Below are positions 12,405-64,000 of a stretch of DNA of 64,000 bases, piece by piece (the stretch's first letter is position 1; every line of letters begins with the position of its first letter). The notes below the pieces were generated by a model. It did no database searches, was not told the DNA's origin, and saw only the letters and a program-made list of their open reading frames with translations. The stretch lies in the NCBI GenBank assembly GCA_902600635.1, contig CACKKE010000001.1:15194-79193 (forward strand), read 5' to 3'. Both the position numbers and the translations under genes were made by a program. The stretch comes from an uncultured Pelagibacteraceae bacterium (GTDB taxonomy: Bacteria > Pseudomonadota > Alphaproteobacteria > Pelagibacterales > Pelagibacteraceae).

Positions 12405-12482
12405 ATGCCTAAGAGAAGAAAAAAAGCAAAGAAGGCTAAGAAAAAAGCTAAGAAAAAAGCTAAAAAAAGAAGAAGAAGATAA
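12405..12482 (+). CDS. Unannotated 25-aa Lys/Arg/Ala-rich peptide (protamine/histone H1-like or eL41/bS22-like)
   Basis: MPKRRKKAKKAKKKAKKKAKKRRRR followed by TAA TAA; SD AAGGGAG at 12392-12398; dedicated promoter and terminator. Confidence 0.8.
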   Translation: MPKRRKKAKKAKKKAKKKAKKRRRR

Positions 12483-12500: not shown

Positions 12501-12545
12501 AAAAAACGCTTCTCATAACTTTTTGTGTGAGAGGCGTTTTTTTTT
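12501..12545 (+). terminator. Intrinsic terminator between the peptide gene and convergent carD
   Basis: CGCTTCTCATA...TGTGAGAGGCG stem with two G:U pairs that form only on the + strand, followed by a 9-T run. An A-run on the other side suggests possible bidirectional use. Confidence 0.85.
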
Positions 12546-13407
12546 ATTCTTCTATTTGTTCATCATCCTCTGAAATTGGCTCTTCAACAGTTAATTCATT
12601 TGTACTCGTTGTTGAACTTGAAGTTTTAGTACTTTTATCCTCTTCCTTTACCTCTTTATTAAGATTTCTTTTAAGAGCTTTATCAAGTTTTTTTTGTGTA
12701 TCTTCTCGTGATACATTTAAAACAATTTGAAATTCTGAAAGAATTCGATCATAGGCTTTCTCAAACAGTTGTCTTTCACTGTAAGATTGATCAATCATTA
12801 GATCATCACCTTTATTTAGATCTCTTACTACCTCAGCTAATTCATAAATTTTACCAGAAGAAATTTTTGCTTCATATTCTTGAGCTCTTCTACTCCACAT
12901 AGACCTTTTAATTTTTGGTTTACTTTTCAAAATTGAAACACTTTTGTTTACTTGATTAATTGTAGAAAGTGGACGTAAATGAGATTGTTTATTGACTGGC
13001 ACCATACCGTTAGCTTTGTCTTTTTCGAACTTTATAATATAGGTTTCAACATCAATCCCACCAATATTGATTTTCTTGAATTCCGTAATTTGACCTACTC
13101 CATGTTTAGGATATACAACATAATCTTTAATTTTATATTCTCTCTTTTCAGTATTTTGTTTTTTTACTTTTTTGATTTCAGGTTTAAGTTCATTGCTCTT
13201 AGAAATTCTTAGATTTTCATTTTGAACTTCAGTTTTCGGCTTTATCTTTTTCTGAACCTTCTTCGGAATTTTTGAAATTTTCTTTACTTTTTTTAATTTT
13301 ATAATTTTTGCTTTCTTAACTTTTGTAATTGGTTTTTTTTTGACTTTTACCTTAGTTTTCTTTTTAAAGGTTTTCTTTAAAATACTTTTCAAACTTATTT
13401 TGCTCAT
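12544..13407 (-). CDS. carD: CarD/CdnL RNA polymerase-binding transcription factor with Lys-rich N-terminal extension
   Basis: [13 protein letters not shown] domain, MWSRRAQEY with the conserved Trp, SYSERQL. Start placed at ATG 13407 (uncertain). Confidence 0.9.
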
Positions 13408-13690
13408 TTTTATATTTTTCGTGATCCGAAGGTGGATCTTTTTTCTCACTTATGTTGGGCCAGATCTCAGAATATTTTTTATTGATTTCTAACCACTTTT
13501 CACTGCCTGGCTCTATATCTGCTTTAATTGCATCAACAGGACATTCAGGCTCACAAACGCCACAATCTATACACTCATCAGGTTTAATTACAAGCATATT
13601 TTTCCCTTCATAGAAACAATCTACAGGACAAACTTCAACACAGTCCATTAATTTACACTTGATACATTTATCATTTACTATGTAAGTCAT
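13364..13690 (-). CDS. fdxA: Ferredoxin, FdxA (7Fe) type
   Basis: [17 protein letters not shown] and [12 protein letters not shown]. Confidence 0.93.
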
Positions 13691-59526: not shown

Positions 59527-60459
59527 ATGCCTAAAAAAATCATTTTTATGGGTACACCCATGTTTGCAGTTCCAATATTGAAATCACTCTATCAAAATGG
59601 TTTTCCTATAAATTTGGTTTATACACAACCACCCCAAAAATCTCACCGAGGTCAGAAGATAAATAAATCACCAGTCCAAGGTATATCGGAAACTTTAAAT
59701 ATAGAATTCAGATCTCCACAGAACTTGAAAAACAACTCTGAGGAATATGAGTTTTTAAAAAAAATGGAAGCTGATCTTGCAATTGTTGTAGCCTATGGAC
59801 AAATAATTCCTAAAGAATTCTTAAGTTTAACAAAAAAAGGTTTTATAAATATTCATGCATCTATACTCCCAAAATGGAGAGGTGCTGCACCTATCCAGAG
59901 AGCTATAATGAATTTAGATATAGAAACAGGGATTAGTATAATGAAAATTAATGAAGAATTGGATAGCGGACCTGTAAGCAACACTTATAAAATAAAACTT
60001 GATCAAAGTCTGAATGCAAAAGAGGTCTCAGAAAAACTCGCTTTAATGGCAGCAGATAAAATTTTAGATGTTGTGGATGAAATTTTTGAGGGTAAATCAA
60101 ATTTTGTTGATCAAGATAACTCCAAAGCGACTTATGCAAAAAAAATTACTAAAAATGAAGGGCAAATAGACTGGAAAAGTGATGCTTTAAAAATAATTGG
60201 AAAAATTAATGGCTTATATCCCTCCCCAGGAGCTTTTTTCAATTTTAACGGACAAAGATATAAAGTTTTAAAAGCTGAAATTGGAAATGGGATTGGTAAA
60301 ATTGGAGAGGTTATATCAGACGATCTTGAAATAGCGTGTGGAGGTGAAAAATCTATTAAAGTTGTTGAAATACAGAGAGAGGGAAAAAAGGTTCAAAAAA
60401 TTGGAGAGTTTATGCTTGGATCCCAGATCAGAAAAGGTTCAATTATATCTAATGTTTAG
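59527..60459 (+). CDS. fmt: Methionyl-tRNA formyltransferase
   Basis: FMGTP, VVAYG, NIHASILPKWRGAAPIQ. Confidence 0.96.
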   Translation: MPKKIIFMGTPMFAVPILKSLYQNGFPINLVYTQPPQKSHRGQKINKSPVQGISETLNIEFRSPQNLKNNSEEYEFLKKMEADLAIVVAYGQIIPKEFLSLTKKGFINIHASILPKWRGAAPIQRAIMNLDIETGISIMKINEELDSGPVSNTYKIKLDQSLNAKEVSEKLALMAADKILDVVDEIFEGKSNFVDQDNSKATYAKKITKNEGQIDWKSDALKIIGKINGLYPSPGAFFNFNGQRYKVLKAEIGNGIGKIGEVISDDLEIACGGEKSIKVVEIQREGKKVQKIGEFMLGSQIRKGSIISNV

Positions 60460-61192
60460 ATATCAAATATTGATAGAGTATGTAGGTACCAATTTTAGAG
60501 GTTGGCAAATTCAAACAAAGGGCAAAACTATACAAGGTTTTATCCAAGAGAGAATTTCTAAATTATTAAAAGAAAAAATTATTTTGTTTGGCGCTGGAAG
60601 ACTAGATAAAGGAGTGCACGCACTTGAACAATCTGCTCATTTTGAGTGTAAAAAAAAAATTGAAAATTCGAATAAATTTGCCAAATCTTTAAATCATTTT
60701 TTAAATAAAGAAATGATTTCAATCATTAAAATAAAGAAAAGAGGCAATGATTTTCATGCAAGATTTTCTGCAAGAATGAGAATATATAAGTATATAATAA
60801 TTAATCGTCCAAGTAGACCGGCAATAGATAGAAATAGAGGATGGCACATTATTAATAAACTTGATTTAAAGATAATGAAAAAAGCTGCGAAAAAATTAGT
60901 TGGTACTAAAGACTTTTCTACCTTCAGAGCTTCAAGCTGTAGAGCTAAAAGTCCAATCAAAACAATGAAATTAGTAAAAATAAGATCTAGAAATAGTAAA
61001 ATAGAGATAGAATTTCAATCTCAATCTTTTCTACAACAACAGGTTCGTTCAATGGTTGGTTGTTTAAAATATGTAGGTGAAAAAAAATGGACTTTAAAAA
61101 AATTCAATTTTGTTATGAACTCAAAAAAAAGGATTTTGTGTGCACCTCCTGCACCACCTGAAGGACTTTATTTAGCTAGAGTGATTTATTAA
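60452..61192 (+). CDS. truA: tRNA pseudouridine(38-40) synthase
   Basis: EYVGTNFRGWQ, GAGRLDKGVHA, FHARFSA, FLQQQVR; start reassigned to ATG 60452. Confidence 0.93.
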   Translation: MFRYQILIEYVGTNFRGWQIQTKGKTIQGFIQERISKLLKEKIILFGAGRLDKGVHALEQSAHFECKKKIENSNKFAKSLNHFLNKEMISIIKIKKRGNDFHARFSARMRIYKYIIINRPSRPAIDRNRGWHIINKLDLKIMKKAAKKLVGTKDFSTFRASSCRAKSPIKTMKLVKIRSRNSKIEIEFQSQSFLQQQVRSMVGCLKYVGEKKWTLKKFNFVMNSKKRILCAPPAPPEGLYLARVIY

Positions 61193-61663
61193 TTTTTTTT
61201 TGTTACTCATTGCAAACTTTTTATTAATTCTCCATCTTGACTCTTCTCTAACAATATAACCACAGCAATTTTTTGAACCACATTTACAAGGAAATTGTTT
61301 ATAGTCCTCATCATAACCAAATCCGTAATCACATGTAAACTCCTCTCCTTTTTTAATATCACGAATTGCAGTAATCCATACTTTTAAACCTTTGCCATTA
61401 TAATCACAGTTATTATTACAACTATGGTTTACTAGACCTGCAATATTCCATGAAAAATCTCCGTCGAGAGTATATTTTTTATTTAATGTGAATAAGTAAA
61501 TAGGTTTTTTATTATCAAACTTAATTGACTCATCAACCTCTTTATTTGTAATAATTTTACCAATGTAATTAATTATTTTTGTTCCCTCTTTAATATCACG
61601 TGTTGCATAAAGACCTCTTCCTTTTTTATCAATTTTAGATCTTTTAATTCTATAAAGTTTCAT
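61172..61663 (-). CDS. SET-domain protein-lysine methyltransferase with post-SET Cys motif
   Basis: GRGLYATRDI, NHSC, GEEFTCDYG, CKCGSKNC. Confidence 0.9.
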   Translation of the reverse strand: MKLYRIKRSKIDKKGRGLYATRDIKEGTKIINYIGKIITNKEVDESIKFDNKKPIYLFTLNKKYTLDGDFSWNIAGLVNHSCNNNCDYNGKGLKVWITAIRDIKKGEEFTCDYGFGYDEDYKQFPCKCGSKNCCGYIVREESRWRINKKFAMSNKKKLINHSS

Positions 61664-61693
61664 TTGAGTGAATTATTATTAATTAAATTTAAA

Positions 61694-62617
61694 TCAATTG
61701 AATTCTACAAGTGCGTTAACATGTTCATTAGCACTTTCAGATAATGCATTTAAATCATACCCCCCCTCAAGAATAGAGATAACTTTGCCTTGAGTGAACT
61801 TGTTGGTAGCAGCTAAAGCTCTTTTAGTAATTTCATAGAAGTCTTTTGATTTAAGTTTAAATTGAGCTAAAGGATCATCTTTATGAGCATCAAAACCTGC
61901 CGAGAATATAAGAAAATCAGGTTTATAATTGACCAACCTATCTAAAACTCTATTGAATGCATTAAAATATTCCTCCGAGTTTGTGCCTGCTGGCAAAGGT
62001 ATATTTAAAGAGTTATTAAAATCACCCTTATCTTTATCTGTACCTCCTCCAGGATAAAAAGGATATTGGTGTGTTGAAATATATAATGAATTTTTGTTAT
62101 TACGCATAACATCATAATTTCCATTTCCCCAATGCACATCAAAATCTACACATGCAACTCTCTTATATTTATAATTTTTAATTAAGTAATTAGTGGCTAC
62201 CCCAGCGTTTGATATACAACAAAATCCCATTGCCTTATCCTTTTCCGCATGATGTCCAGGAGGTCTTGCTAAACAAAACGCGTTTTTAAATTCTTTATTT
62301 TCTATTCCATCAATGGCCCTAATTGTTGAGCCAGCTGCATCAAATACTGCTTTTTTACTGTCTGGTGATATTACAGTATCTCCATCTAAAAATTTTAGAC
62401 CTTTTTGAGGGAAAGAACTATTTAAATTATCAATATATTCTTTTGAATGTGTCATTGACAATATATCGTCTGGCACATTACCTGGTTTTTTCCAAATTAG
62501 ATCACTTCTTTTTTTTAATTTTTCTTTTATAGCAATTACTCTTTTAGGCTGTTCAGGATGACCGTTACCAGTGTCATGTTTTTCATAAGAGTCTGAATTT
62601 ATAATTGCCGTATTCAT
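61694..62617 (-). CDS. Histone deacetylase family (Zn-dependent) amidohydrolase
   Basis: GHPEQPKR, RPPGHHA, GFC, DFDVHWGNG, SAGFDAH, LEGGY. Confidence 0.92.
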   Translation of the reverse strand: MNTAIINSDSYEKHDTGNGHPEQPKRVIAIKEKLKKRSDLIWKKPGNVPDDILSMTHSKEYIDNLNSSFPQKGLKFLDGDTVISPDSKKAVFDAAGSTIRAIDGIENKEFKNAFCLARPPGHHAEKDKAMGFCCISNAGVATNYLIKNYKYKRVACVDFDVHWGNGNYDVMRNNKNSLYISTHQYPFYPGGGTDKDKGDFNNSLNIPLPAGTNSEEYFNAFNRVLDRLVNYKPDFLIFSAGFDAHKDDPLAQFKLKSKDFYEITKRALAATNKFTQGKVISILEGGYDLNALSESANEHVNALVEFN

Positions 62618-63771
62618 TTGAAATAATTTTTTAAAATATTTTCATAAATTTTTGTTAGTTTTTTAAGATCTTTCAGAGATACTGCCTCATCAACTTTATG
62701 CATAGTTTTTCCAACTAAACCAAATTCAAGACCAGGACATATGGTTCTTATAAATCTTAAATCCGAAGTTCCACCTGTTGTAGATAATTTTGGTTTTAAT
62801 TTAGTTATCTTTTTAATGATATTTTGTATCATAAATGTTGTTTTGTTAGGTTTTGTCAAAAAAGCTTCACCAGAAACTCTGTACTCAATTTTAAATTTTG
62901 ATTTATGTTTTTTGGTCATTTTTTTAAAAATTTTGTTAAGTTTTTTTTTAAGAGAATTTGAGGAATGTTTATTATTAAATCTTATGTTGAATGTTGCTTC
63001 AGCTGTAGCCGGAATAATATTATCTGCAGTATTATTTATACTTATTCTGGTAACCTCCAAATTTGTAGGTTGAAAGTCTCTGGTTCCTTTATCAAACTGA
63101 ATTTCCTTTAATTCTTTTAAAATATTAACAATTATGGTCGAAGGGTTATTTGCTCTGGAAGGATATGCAACGTGACCTTGTAAACCGAATATAATTAATT
63201 TACCAGTTAAACTGCCTCTACGACCAATTTTAATCATTTCACCTAAAACATTTGGGTTAGTTGGTTCACCCACTAAGCAAAAATCAATCTTTTCTCTTTT
63301 TTTTTTTAAAAACTCTACAACTTTTTTTGTGCCATTGACTGCATCACCTTCCTCATCACCTGTTATTAGCAGACTAATTGATCCATTAAATTTTTTATTT
63401 TTTGACAAAAACGTGCTTACAGCTGAAACGAAAGCTGCAATAGAACTTTTCATATCATTTGCACCTCTTCCAATTAAGTGACCCTTTTTTATAGATGGTT
63501 TGAATGGATTAGTTGTCCAATCTTTTATATTTCCTGGAGGTACAACATCTAGGTGACCTGCATAACAGAAGTTTGGACTTTTATTTCCGAATCTTGCATA
63601 TAAATTTTTAACAGGCTTAAAGCCCCTTTCTTTAAATTCGAGTGTTTTTGTTTTGAAACCAAGTCTTTTCAATTTTTTTTCTAAAAATTTCATTATACCT
63701 GCATCTACAGGAGTAATTGAAGGAAATCTAATTAGCTCTTTAGCTAATTGTAACTGATTTAAAGTTTTCAT
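62614..63771 (-). CDS. dapE: Succinyl-diaminopimelate desuccinylase
   Basis: GHLDVVP, GRGANDMK, GDEE, GRRGS, GGTSD, MHKVDE. Confidence 0.95.
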   Translation of the reverse strand: MKTLNQLQLAKELIRFPSITPVDAGIMKFLEKKLKRLGFKTKTLEFKERGFKPVKNLYARFGNKSPNFCYAGHLDVVPPGNIKDWTTNPFKPSIKKGHLIGRGANDMKSSIAAFVSAVSTFLSKNKKFNGSISLLITGDEEGDAVNGTKKVVEFLKKKREKIDFCLVGEPTNPNVLGEMIKIGRRGSLTGKLIIFGLQGHVAYPSRANNPSTIIVNILKELKEIQFDKGTRDFQPTNLEVTRISINNTADNIIPATAEATFNIRFNNKHSSNSLKKKLNKIFKKMTKKHKSKFKIEYRVSGEAFLTKPNKTTFMIQNIIKKITKLKPKLSTTGGTSDLRFIRTICPGLEFGLVGKTMHKVDEAVSLKDLKKLTKIYENILKNYFK

Positions 63772-63772
63772 T

Positions 63773-64000
63773 TTAGTCTCGTAAAAGGTCGTTTATAGAA
63801 GTTTTTGACCTTGTTTTTTCATCAACCTGCTTAATTATTACAGCACAGTACAACGATGGTGCAGCCGAATTATTTTTGTCTGGCAATGAACCTGGGACAA
63901 CAACTGAGTACGGCGGAATTTTACCATAAGTGATATTACCAGTTTTTCGATCGACTATTTTAGTTGATTGACCTATATACATACCCATACTTAAAACTGA
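63773..64000 (-). CDS. dapD: Tetrahydrodipicolinate N-succinyltransferase, 3' fragment
   Basis: [15 protein letters not shown]...PYSVVVPG...[24 protein letters not shown]. Confidence 0.93.

What the first reader, a model, noticed from the sequence alone, without database searches (positions are those of the whole stretch)
61172..62617. Adjacent lysine deacetylase and SET methyltransferase: candidate eraser/writer pair for a bacterial chromatin-like system
Seen: an intact Zn-dependent HDAC-family gene and a SET + post-SET gene lie in tandem (30 nt apart) at the end of the dapD-dapE lysine-biosynthesis run. Neither has an obvious secretion signal. The same window encodes two extremely Lys-rich candidates, the 25-aa KKAK peptide and the CarD tail. 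Established: SET proteins methylate lysines, and chlamydial SET has been reported to methylate the histone-like Hc1/Hc2. Most studied bacterial SET proteins are host-directed effectors, which is unlikely in a free-living streamlined cell. Inference: deacetylate-then-methylate control of endogenous basic proteins, transcriptionally tied to lysine supply. The link to the peptide 49 kb away is hypothesis only.
Basis: partly seen in the sequence, partly recalled or inferred. Interest (0 to 1): 0.75.

Follow-up and report, generated by a model that had tools for sequence, protein, structure and literature searches.

The report
Two lysine enzymes: neighbours, not partners
Genes for a zinc deacetylase and a SET-type methyltransferase do sit side by side in this marine bacterium, but relatives keep, lose, move and swap them separately, so they are likely two independent housekeeping enzymes rather than a paired chromatin switch.

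Summary
Both genes are intact and lie 30 nt apart behind dapD-dapE; 68% of same-strand neighbours in this genome are that close. The pairing is lineage-limited. It holds in 29 of 30 same-genus genomes but only 35 of 100 in the family and 0 of 24 in the sister family, and was never seen beyond. The deacetylase moved from xseB-ispA to dapE; SET came later. Six genera have no SET, and one genus mostly keeps dapE-SET with a different deacetylase elsewhere. SET distances track truA (rho 0.71) better than the deacetylase (0.35). The Lys-rich peptide gene is real (54 of 56 carD loci) but persists in all 23 SET-less family genomes read, one a closed genome with neither enzyme intact. Best reading: a general protein deacylase (no sirtuin in 5 genomes searched) and an independent lysine methyltransferase of unknown, probably basic, substrate. 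A coupled eraser/writer is not excluded (about 12%): the known Legionella pair is not adjacent either. The scan reported this pair twice before on other genomes, with the same verdict.

The parts
61172..61663 (-). SET + post-SET protein, 163 aa, predicted protein-lysine methyltransferase (GxG 15-17, Y33, NHSC 79-82, catalytic Y113, Zn cysteines C82/C126/C128/C133; Cys111 at the F/Y-switch position)
61664..61693 (-). 30-nt AT-rich spacer; no promoter- or terminator-like site called inside it
61694..62617 (-). Zn-dependent classical deacylase, 307 aa, class II-like (H122/H123, D160/H162/D243, Y287); a divergent allele with S136, W163, N167, Y168
62614..63771 (-). dapE, succinyl-diaminopimelate desuccinylase; the deacetylase's stable upstream neighbour across the family
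63773..64000 (-). 3' end of dapD (continues beyond the window; the genome has yidC-argB-HAD hydrolase-dapD upstream)
60452..61192 (+). truA, convergent with SET (21-nt overlap); fixed right border of the slot into which different genes are inserted
12405..12482 (+). 25-aa Lys/Arg/Ala peptide gene; conserved beside carD across the order; not dependent on SET
12544..13449 (-). carD/cdnL with a Lys-rich N-terminal extension of about 100 aa (true start uncertain)

Best explanation
The two genes are intact neighbours that relatives keep, lose, move and replace separately, so they likely encode two independent housekeeping enzymes: a zinc enzyme predicted to strip acyl groups from protein lysines, and a SAM-dependent enzyme predicted to methylate lysines of the cell's own, probably basic, proteins. 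History (gene orders shown, order of events inferred): the deacylase is the common alphaproteobacterial class II-like enzyme that usually sits before xseB-ispA. In this family's ancestor it moved behind dapE, at the end of the yidC-argB-dapD-dapE run where that run meets truA-fmt-def. That junction then took in different genes in different lineages, and SET is the one that landed there in this lineage. The deacylase probably rides on the dap transcript. With no sirtuin found, it is probably the main remover of lysine acylation, much of which may be non-enzymatic. The SET substrate is unknown; a basic nucleic-acid-binding protein is the best guess.
For: Adjacency is 29 of 30 in the own genus, 4 of 31, 1 of 1 and 1 of 1 in three other genera, and 0 of 10 in g5. 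In the sister family it is 0 of 24 (11 genomes have both 57-75 kb apart). It was seen in 0 of 29 other class genomes and in 0 of 28 phylum SET loci. No SET orthologue in 27 genomes of six genera, 22 of which have the deacylase; a subfamily profile finds none in four single-contig genomes. In 12 of 15 g260 SET loci read, SET follows dapE directly; the deacylase there is of another clade and lies elsewhere. The deacylase lies beside xseB and/or ispA in 20 of 27 class loci, and that slot is empty in this genome. The whole block is equally conserved within the genus, and SAR11 gene order is 96% conserved in general (PMC2217521). Distance correlations over 42 loci: SET-truA 0.71, SET-dapE 0.62, HDAC-SET 0.35. 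No SIR2 in 5 of 5 genomes searched. An alphaproteobacterial relative modelled on the same best structure, 5JI5, raises bulk protein acetylation when deleted (AZC_0414, PMC9927263).
Against: A class II-like deacylase is present in 70 of 72 SET-bearing against 23 of 28 SET-less family genomes (Fisher p=0.017; kin are not independent, assemblies incomplete). All 25 g260 genomes with SET and the roughly 42%-identical deacylase hold that replacement, which fits one-way dependence. The proven pair LphD/RomA is not adjacent either (lpp2163 and lpp1683), so broken synteny does not disprove coupling. The partial correlation HDAC-SET stays slightly positive (0.18). Orthology of AZC_0414 to this gene could not be tested. 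No activity was measured.
Confidence: 0.62

Rival explanations
1. Coupled eraser/writer: the deacetylase frees specific lysines on the H1-tail-like peptide, the CarD tail or HU, and SET then methylates them, tuning nucleoid compaction.
For: Adjacent in 27 of 27 same-genus genomes with both on one contig. The SET is nearest to MLL1/Set1 (Z 14.9) and keeps an acidic loop after the catalytic Tyr (D118 in 43 of 48). A Lys-rich peptide gene lies beside carD in 54 of 56 loci. Deacylase in 70 of 72 SET-bearing genomes. Distant SET relatives lie beside gyrB or a topoisomerase in 5 of 28 loci, and g5 SETs converge on gcrA. Precedents: cpnSET methylates Hc1 (PMC3980110) and LphD enables RomA (PMC10104843).
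Against: Independent loss, movement and allele exchange: one genome has a SET 91% identical to this one beside a deacylase only 57% identical, another 67% beside 78%. The peptide is kept in 23 of 23 SET-less family genomes read, including closed genome G382, which has no SET and only a broken deacylase paralogue. G252 has a SET of this clade and no class II-like deacylase. mRNAs are uncorrelated (r=0.32). No Pat-type acetyl writer was found in 5 genomes.
Confidence: 0.13
2. The deacetylase is a small-molecule amidohydrolase (acetylpolyamine or N-acetyl amino acid) that serves the argB-dapD-dapE operon or nitrogen scavenging; SET is unrelated to it.
For: It follows dapE in all 8 family genera where its native locus was read. 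Its protein rose 2.65-fold in N-limited stationary P. ubique (PMC3870248; one peptide). Graf et al. describe an alphaproteobacterial sub-cluster 1c annotated as acetylpolyamine hydrolases, and cluster 1 contains small-molecule hydrolases (PMC11532494).
Against: Leu250 (38 of 38 rows) stands at the HDAC10 Glu-gatekeeper position, as in HDAC6; bacterial polyamine enzymes have Ile there, so this is weak. Solved acetylpolyamine hydrolases match far worse (E 7e-31) than 5JI5 (E 2e-61). Graf et al. found polyamine activity only in cluster 4 among the enzymes they tested. ArgJ is present in 5 of 5 genomes and DapD/DapE is the succinyl route, so no step is missing. Elsewhere the gene sits by xseB-ispA, and most g260 genomes keep dapD-dapE without it.
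Confidence: 0.18
3. The SET protein methylates a small molecule, like BurB (Met to S-methylmethionine).
For: BurB shows that a stand-alone bacterial SET of similar size (172 aa) can do this (PMC12542666). The F/Y-switch Tyr is replaced by Cys here (8 of 48 rows).
Against: BurB ranks 38th (Z 9.7, rmsd 4.0, 24% identity) against MLL1 at Z 14.9, rmsd 2.9, 33%, and is not among the 60 best sequence matches shown. Neighbours across the order show no metabolic cluster.
Confidence: 0.07

Closest known systems
Legionella pneumophila LphD (HDAC-like) + RomA (SET) para-effectors (PMC10104843: abstract and passages)
   Same: A Zn-dependent deacetylase and a SET methyltransferase in one bacterium; the precedent for deacetylate-then-methylate at one lysine.
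   Different: Those are secreted, act on host H3K14, are longer and are not adjacent. The SET here scores 36.6 bits against a cut-off of 550 on the LegAS4 model. No shared target or mutual dependence is shown here.
Class II-like bacterial deacylases: Burkholderia phymatum 5JI5, Azorhizobium AZC_0414 (PMC9927263: passages), Graf et al. cluster 1 (PMC11532494: section 6, passages, supplement search); P. ubique SAR11_0460 'acuC' (PMC3870248)
   Same: Same fold (TM 0.95 to 5JI5), all catalytic residues, similar length. SAR11_0460 is annotated, lies two locus numbers from dapE and is detected as protein.
   Different: Placed behind dapE rather than before xseB. This allele carries unusual S136/W163/N167/Y168. 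Sub-cluster 1c is my inference, not tested.
Bacterial and archaeal stand-alone SET proteins: Chlamydia cpnSET (methylates Hc1), Methanosarcina Go1-SET (MC1-alpha) (PMC3980110: parts 1-2 of 5; PMC10117894: passages)
   Same: Small SET + post-SET protein; precedent for methylating an endogenous basic DNA-binding protein.
   Different: Free-living streamlined host, no known substrate, Cys at the F/Y switch, lost in six related genera.
BurB methionine S-methyltransferase (PMC12542666: parts 1-2 of 4 and passages)
   Same: Stand-alone bacterial SET of similar length.
   Different: Much weaker structural match than MLL/Set1; no DMSP-pathway neighbours seen.

Membership tests
Zn-dependent classical deacylase (class II-like) | His-His dyad, Asp-His-Asp zinc site, GFC motif, GGY catalytic Tyr | tested here: met
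   H122, H123, G131, F132, D160, H162, D243 and Y287 invariant in 38 of 38 rows
Zn-dependent classical deacylase (class II-like) | Arginase/deacetylase fold | tested here: met
   Model pLDDT 96.8; TM 0.95, rmsd 1.4 to 5JI5
Zn-dependent classical deacylase (class II-like) | Hydrolyses acyl-lysine in proteins | not testable with these tools
   Only by analogy with AZC_0414; orthology untested
Polyamine deacetylase (HDAC10 / bacterial cluster 4) | Glu gatekeeper (PEG) or PIS motif | tested here: inconclusive
   P249-L250-A251, matching HDAC6 PLG; bacterial enzymes lack the Glu too
Polyamine deacetylase (HDAC10 / bacterial cluster 4) | Extended L2 loop forming a head-to-head dimer | not tested
   Only the weaker sequence match to solved APAHs was seen
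SET-domain protein lysine methyltransferase | GxG, NHSC, ExxxDY with catalytic Tyr, post-SET CxCx4C zinc site | tested here: met
   G17, Y33, N79, H80, C82, E108, Y113, C126, C128, C133 invariant in 48 of 48 rows
SET-domain protein lysine methyltransferase | Aromatic F/Y switch two residues before the catalytic Tyr (mapping to MLL recalled, alignment) | tested here: not met
   Cys111 here; Tyr in 39, Cys in 8, Ala in 1 of 48 rows. This bears on product specificity, not on family membership
SET-domain protein lysine methyltransferase | Methylates a protein lysine with SAM | not testable with these tools
   No assay
BurB-type methionine S-methyltransferase | Closest structural similarity to BurB | tested here: not met
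   Z 9.7 (rank 38) against 14.9 for MLL1
BurB-type methionine S-methyltransferase | Downstream burI/burD/burE pathway genes | not tested
   Not searched genome-wide; none recognised beside SET
LphD/RomA-like eraser/writer pair | Mutual dependence, read as joint presence | tested here: not met
   Deacylase without SET in 23 of 100 family genomes; SET without the class II-like deacylase in G252
LphD/RomA-like eraser/writer pair | Both act on the same lysine | not testable with these tools
   No substrate known
LphD/RomA-like eraser/writer pair | Secretion into a host | tested here: inconclusive
   No hydrophobic N-terminus; other secretion signals not testable; LegAS4 model far below cut-off
Conserved functional gene pair | Adjacency kept across distant lineages | tested here: not met
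   35 of 100 in the family, 0 of 24 in the sister family, 0 of 29 class genomes, 0 of 28 phylum loci
Conserved functional gene pair | Sequences co-vary more than with other neighbours | tested here: not met
   rho 0.35 against 0.62-0.71 for SET with dapE, fmt, truA
Conserved functional gene pair | Co-expression | tested here: inconclusive
   r=0.32, p=0.31, n=12, low signals, SET identity inferred from position

The most novel reading that the evidence does not exclude
The most abundant ocean bacteria run a minimal chromatin code. An MLL-like SET enzyme methylates the universal H1-tail-like polycation peptide (and perhaps the CarD tail), the sole class II-like deacetylase clears competing acetyl marks, and natural Tyr/Cys variation at the SET F/Y switch tunes the methylation state between lineages. 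SET would depend on the deacetylase one way, which is why lineages with SET replace the deacetylase rather than lose it.
Probability: 0.12. Interest if true: 0.75.

Novelty: new member of a known kind. Interest (0 to 1): 0.27.

Why it matters
As a gene pair it is ordinary: two known enzyme families packed together by streamlining. What remains of value is an open question with a good test system. A SET protein is kept in most genomes of very small, free-living cells with no host to target, and my searches found no paper on its substrate. Natural SET-less genera and Tyr/Cys switch variants give ready comparisons. If the substrate proved to be the conserved polycation peptide, it would be a rare case of endogenous histone-like lysine methylation in a free-living bacterium.

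Tried and rejected
Tight spacing as evidence: rejected, 292 of 431 pairs are as close. Within-genus synteny as evidence: rejected, every junction of the block is as conserved (42-44 of 43-44 loci; those loci were chosen because HDAC and SET were adjacent). Promoter scan: 8 sites against 15.8 expected, 1 terminator-like site against 1.2; uninformative. Metatranscriptome contigs of 4 of 14 RNA runs cover both genes, and three listed contigs bridge the HDAC-SET junction; contigs show neither strand nor single transcripts, and I laid no silent control, so this is not used as evidence. Recent horizontal gain: GC of 26.8% and 32.3% against 29.2% for the genome, and family-level clades in both trees, give no sign of it (quick trees). 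SET as a stand-in for PrmA: no full-length PrmA hit in 5 genomes, including a SET-less one, so no complementary pattern. Deacylase as a missing ArgE step: ArgJ present. Fetching AZC_0414 to test orthology: the first primer gave no match, the second gave 15 loci with no deacylase. The homologue search returned only close relatives of 74-96% identity among the 120 listed, and the Atlas search only SET clusters. Graf et al.'s supplement has 13 Pelagibacter-named rows, of which I saw 2, without cluster labels. A complex prediction was not run, since I do not claim that the proteins bind.

Full report
Observation. The window encodes, on the minus strand, the end of dapD, dapE (62614-63771), a 307-aa HDAC-family protein (61694-62617) and a 163-aa SET protein (61172-61663) that converges on truA. 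The gap between the two genes is 30 nt, dapE overlaps the deacylase start by 4 nt, and SET overlaps truA by 21 nt. Such packing is normal here: 292 of 431 same-strand ORF pairs in the 707-kb, 60%-complete assembly are 30 nt apart or closer. No tool named the organism. I infer a SAR11 (Pelagibacter-like) genome from 29% GC, seawater holders and a gene order that matches the P. ubique locus numbers in PMC3870248.

The deacylase. All catalytic positions are invariant in 38 of 38 aligned rows. The model (pLDDT 96.8) matches Burkholderia 5JI5 best (TM 0.95; E 2e-61); solved acetylpolyamine hydrolases match much less well (E 7e-31). The HDAC10 gatekeeper position is Leu, as in HDAC6, which is weak evidence because bacterial polyamine enzymes have Ile there (PMC11532494, passages). 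An alphaproteobacterial enzyme modelled on 5JI5, AZC_0414, raises bulk protein acetylation when deleted (PMC9927263, passages); I could not test its orthology. No sirtuin was found in 5 of 5 genomes searched, 4 of them near-complete. The only ATP-grasp_5 hits were weak, in frames of about 390 aa that I read as succinyl-CoA synthetase and not a Pat acetyltransferase (label from my own knowledge). Small GNAT proteins are present.

The SET. The SAM-binding motifs, catalytic Tyr113 and four zinc cysteines are invariant in 48 of 48 rows. The nearest solved relatives are MLL/Set1 enzymes by sequence and by fold (Z 14.9). BurB, a SET that methylates methionine (PMC12542666, parts 1-2 of 4), ranks 38th (Z 9.7). 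An acidic loop follows Tyr113, as in MLL3, which fits a basic peptide substrate (inference). The F/Y-switch position is Cys here and Tyr in 39 of 48 rows.

Are they a pair? In a draw of 60 relatives plus this genome, the genes are adjacent in 27 of the 27 same-genus genomes that have both on one contig; 3 have them on different contigs, 2 show only one, and 5 show neither orthologue. In the 24 genomes of the sister family they are never adjacent: 11 have them 57-75 kb apart, 9 on different contigs and 4 show only one (weaker paralogue rows were dropped before counting). In a draw of 100 family genomes at least 85% complete, SET orthologues occur in 72, the deacylase in 93, and adjacency in 35: 29 of 30 in the own genus, 4 of 31 in g260, 1 of 1 in g261 and in g264, 0 of 10 in g5. 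Six genera (27 genomes) have no SET orthologue, and 22 of these have the deacylase. A profile of the subfamily finds nothing in 5 of 5 further checked genomes, four of them single-contig and at least 98% complete (the same profile finds this gene at E 4e-71). One g265 row rests on the unpublished genome G403; without it g265 reads 0 of 11 for SET and 10 of 11 for the deacylase, and nothing changes. Across the class, SET-family hits occur in 52 of 301 genomes and the deacylase in 181 of 301. None of 29 outside genomes with both places listed has them within 5 kb; 9 more could not be checked. None of 28 phylum-wide SET loci has a deacylase within 1.5 kb.

History. The deacylase lies beside xseB and/or ispA in 20 of 27 class loci and in the sister family. 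In this genome that slot, between a tsaC-like gene and the xseB-like/ispA/dxs-like run on contig C2, is empty. In this family the deacylase follows dapE in every genus whose native locus I read, with or without SET, and these copies form one clade (SH-aLRT 99). What follows it varies: truA directly (g258, g259, g262, g265, g266), an acyl-CoA synthetase (g5, g263), a bile-acid-type symporter (G022), Hsp20 (G017, G457) or SET. In 12 of 15 g260 SET loci read, SET follows dapE directly; the deacylase in such genomes is about 42% identical, forms a separate clade and sat after lpxB in 3 of 4 loci read. SET elsewhere lies by gcrA (7 of 7 g5 loci), pnp, a rhodanese-type gene or an inositol monophosphatase-family gene. 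Within 42 of 45 loci where the pair is adjacent, protein distances correlate SET-truA 0.71, SET-fmt 0.67, SET-dapE 0.62 and HDAC-SET 0.35; the two trees share 5 supported splits (pairs are not independent, so I give no p-values). A divergent deacylase allele, found in 13 of 45 loci, is spread without regard to the SET beside it.

The peptide. The 25-aa ORF at 12405-12482 is a real gene by conservation: a Lys/Arg/Ala ORF of 19-91 aa with a purine-rich site upstream lies beside carD in 54 of 56 loci, and the two misses are cut by contig ends. It is present in 23 of 23 SET-less family genomes whose carD locus was returned (23 of 26 loci). One is the closed genome G382, which has no SET, no class II-like deacylase and a paralogue with three internal stops. 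The peptide therefore needs neither enzyme. That does not exclude its modification where they exist.

Expression. In P. ubique (PMC3870248: section 8 and rows of supplementary file 2) the deacylase SAR11_0460 is detected as protein. It rose 2.65-fold in N-limited stationary phase (one peptide) while DapE fell to 0.65-fold. Gene 0459, the SET by position only, had no quantified peptide. Over 12 arrays, 0460 correlates with dapE (r=0.74, p=0.006) at about 8-fold lower signal; 0459 correlates with neither (0.32, 0.24). This supports read-through from dapE into the deacylase but not a lysine-supply switch for the pair.

Against my reading. The deacylase is present in 70 of 72 SET-bearing and 23 of 28 SET-less family genomes (p=0.017), and g260 replaced it rather than losing it; G252 is a counter-example outside the family. 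The one proven bacterial pair, LphD/RomA, is itself unlinked (PMC10104843 abstract and passages; PMC3980110 parts 1-2). Distant SETs lie beside gyrB or a topoisomerase in 5 of 28 loci, which hints at a nucleoid role for the subfamily.

Known and new. Both families are known, and SET proteins of free-living bacteria have been noted (PMC3980110; PMC10117894 passages). Searches returned no paper on a SAR11 SET substrate or on this pair; subscription papers are not covered. I stated my reading before the first look-up of earlier findings; two earlier scan reports on other genomes reach the same verdict. Verdict: a real but ordinary adjacency, interest 0.27; the substrate of the SET is the open question worth a bench test.

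Noticed in passing
window 61694-62617; L034, L210-L220: A divergent deacylase allele (S136, W163, N167, Y168, G191 at otherwise near-constant positions close to the metal site) occurs in 13 of 45 loci and is spread patchily against dapE and SET; it may have a different acyl or substrate preference.
   Followed up: partly
window 61172-61663, residue 111: The SET F/Y-switch position varies naturally (Tyr 39, Cys 8, Ala 1 of 48 rows), which could change mono- versus multi-methylation between lineages.
   Followed up: partly
L032:5419-5859, L033:5256-5696, L038:5671-6111: A second, 146-aa SET paralogue occurs in 9 of 36 same-genus relatives, in two of three loci read between an M24 peptidase and a Rieske oxygenase subunit; a better candidate for a small-molecule methyltransferase.
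   Followed up: partly
L031:5646-6539, L103-L106: A second, distant HDAC-family paralogue (25-29% identical) exists in many family genomes; not found in this 60%-complete assembly.
   Followed up: no
window 12405-12482; L069-L098, L184-L209: The polycation peptide gene varies from 19 to 91 aa by repeat number; the sister family has long AAPKKK-type repeats behind a short non-basic leader.
   Followed up: partly
G013, G374, G375, G037, G169, G000: No sirtuin, no Pat-like acetyltransferase and no full-length PrmA match in the five genomes of each search.
   Followed up: partly
L267, L273, L274, L253, L257: Distant SET relatives lie directly beside gyrB or a type I topoisomerase, and often beside a biotin ligase.
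   Followed up: no
G019:C6:30610-31505, G010:C3:13824-14719, G381:C1:877296-878215: The deacylase gene is split into two matches in these three genomes: a frameshift, an insertion or an assembly error.
   Followed up: no
G000:C2:36835-41884: The ancestral tsaC/xseB-ispA-dxs/aroC neighbourhood survives in this genome without the deacylase, with 20 nt left at its former place (xseB named by position only).
   Followed up: yes
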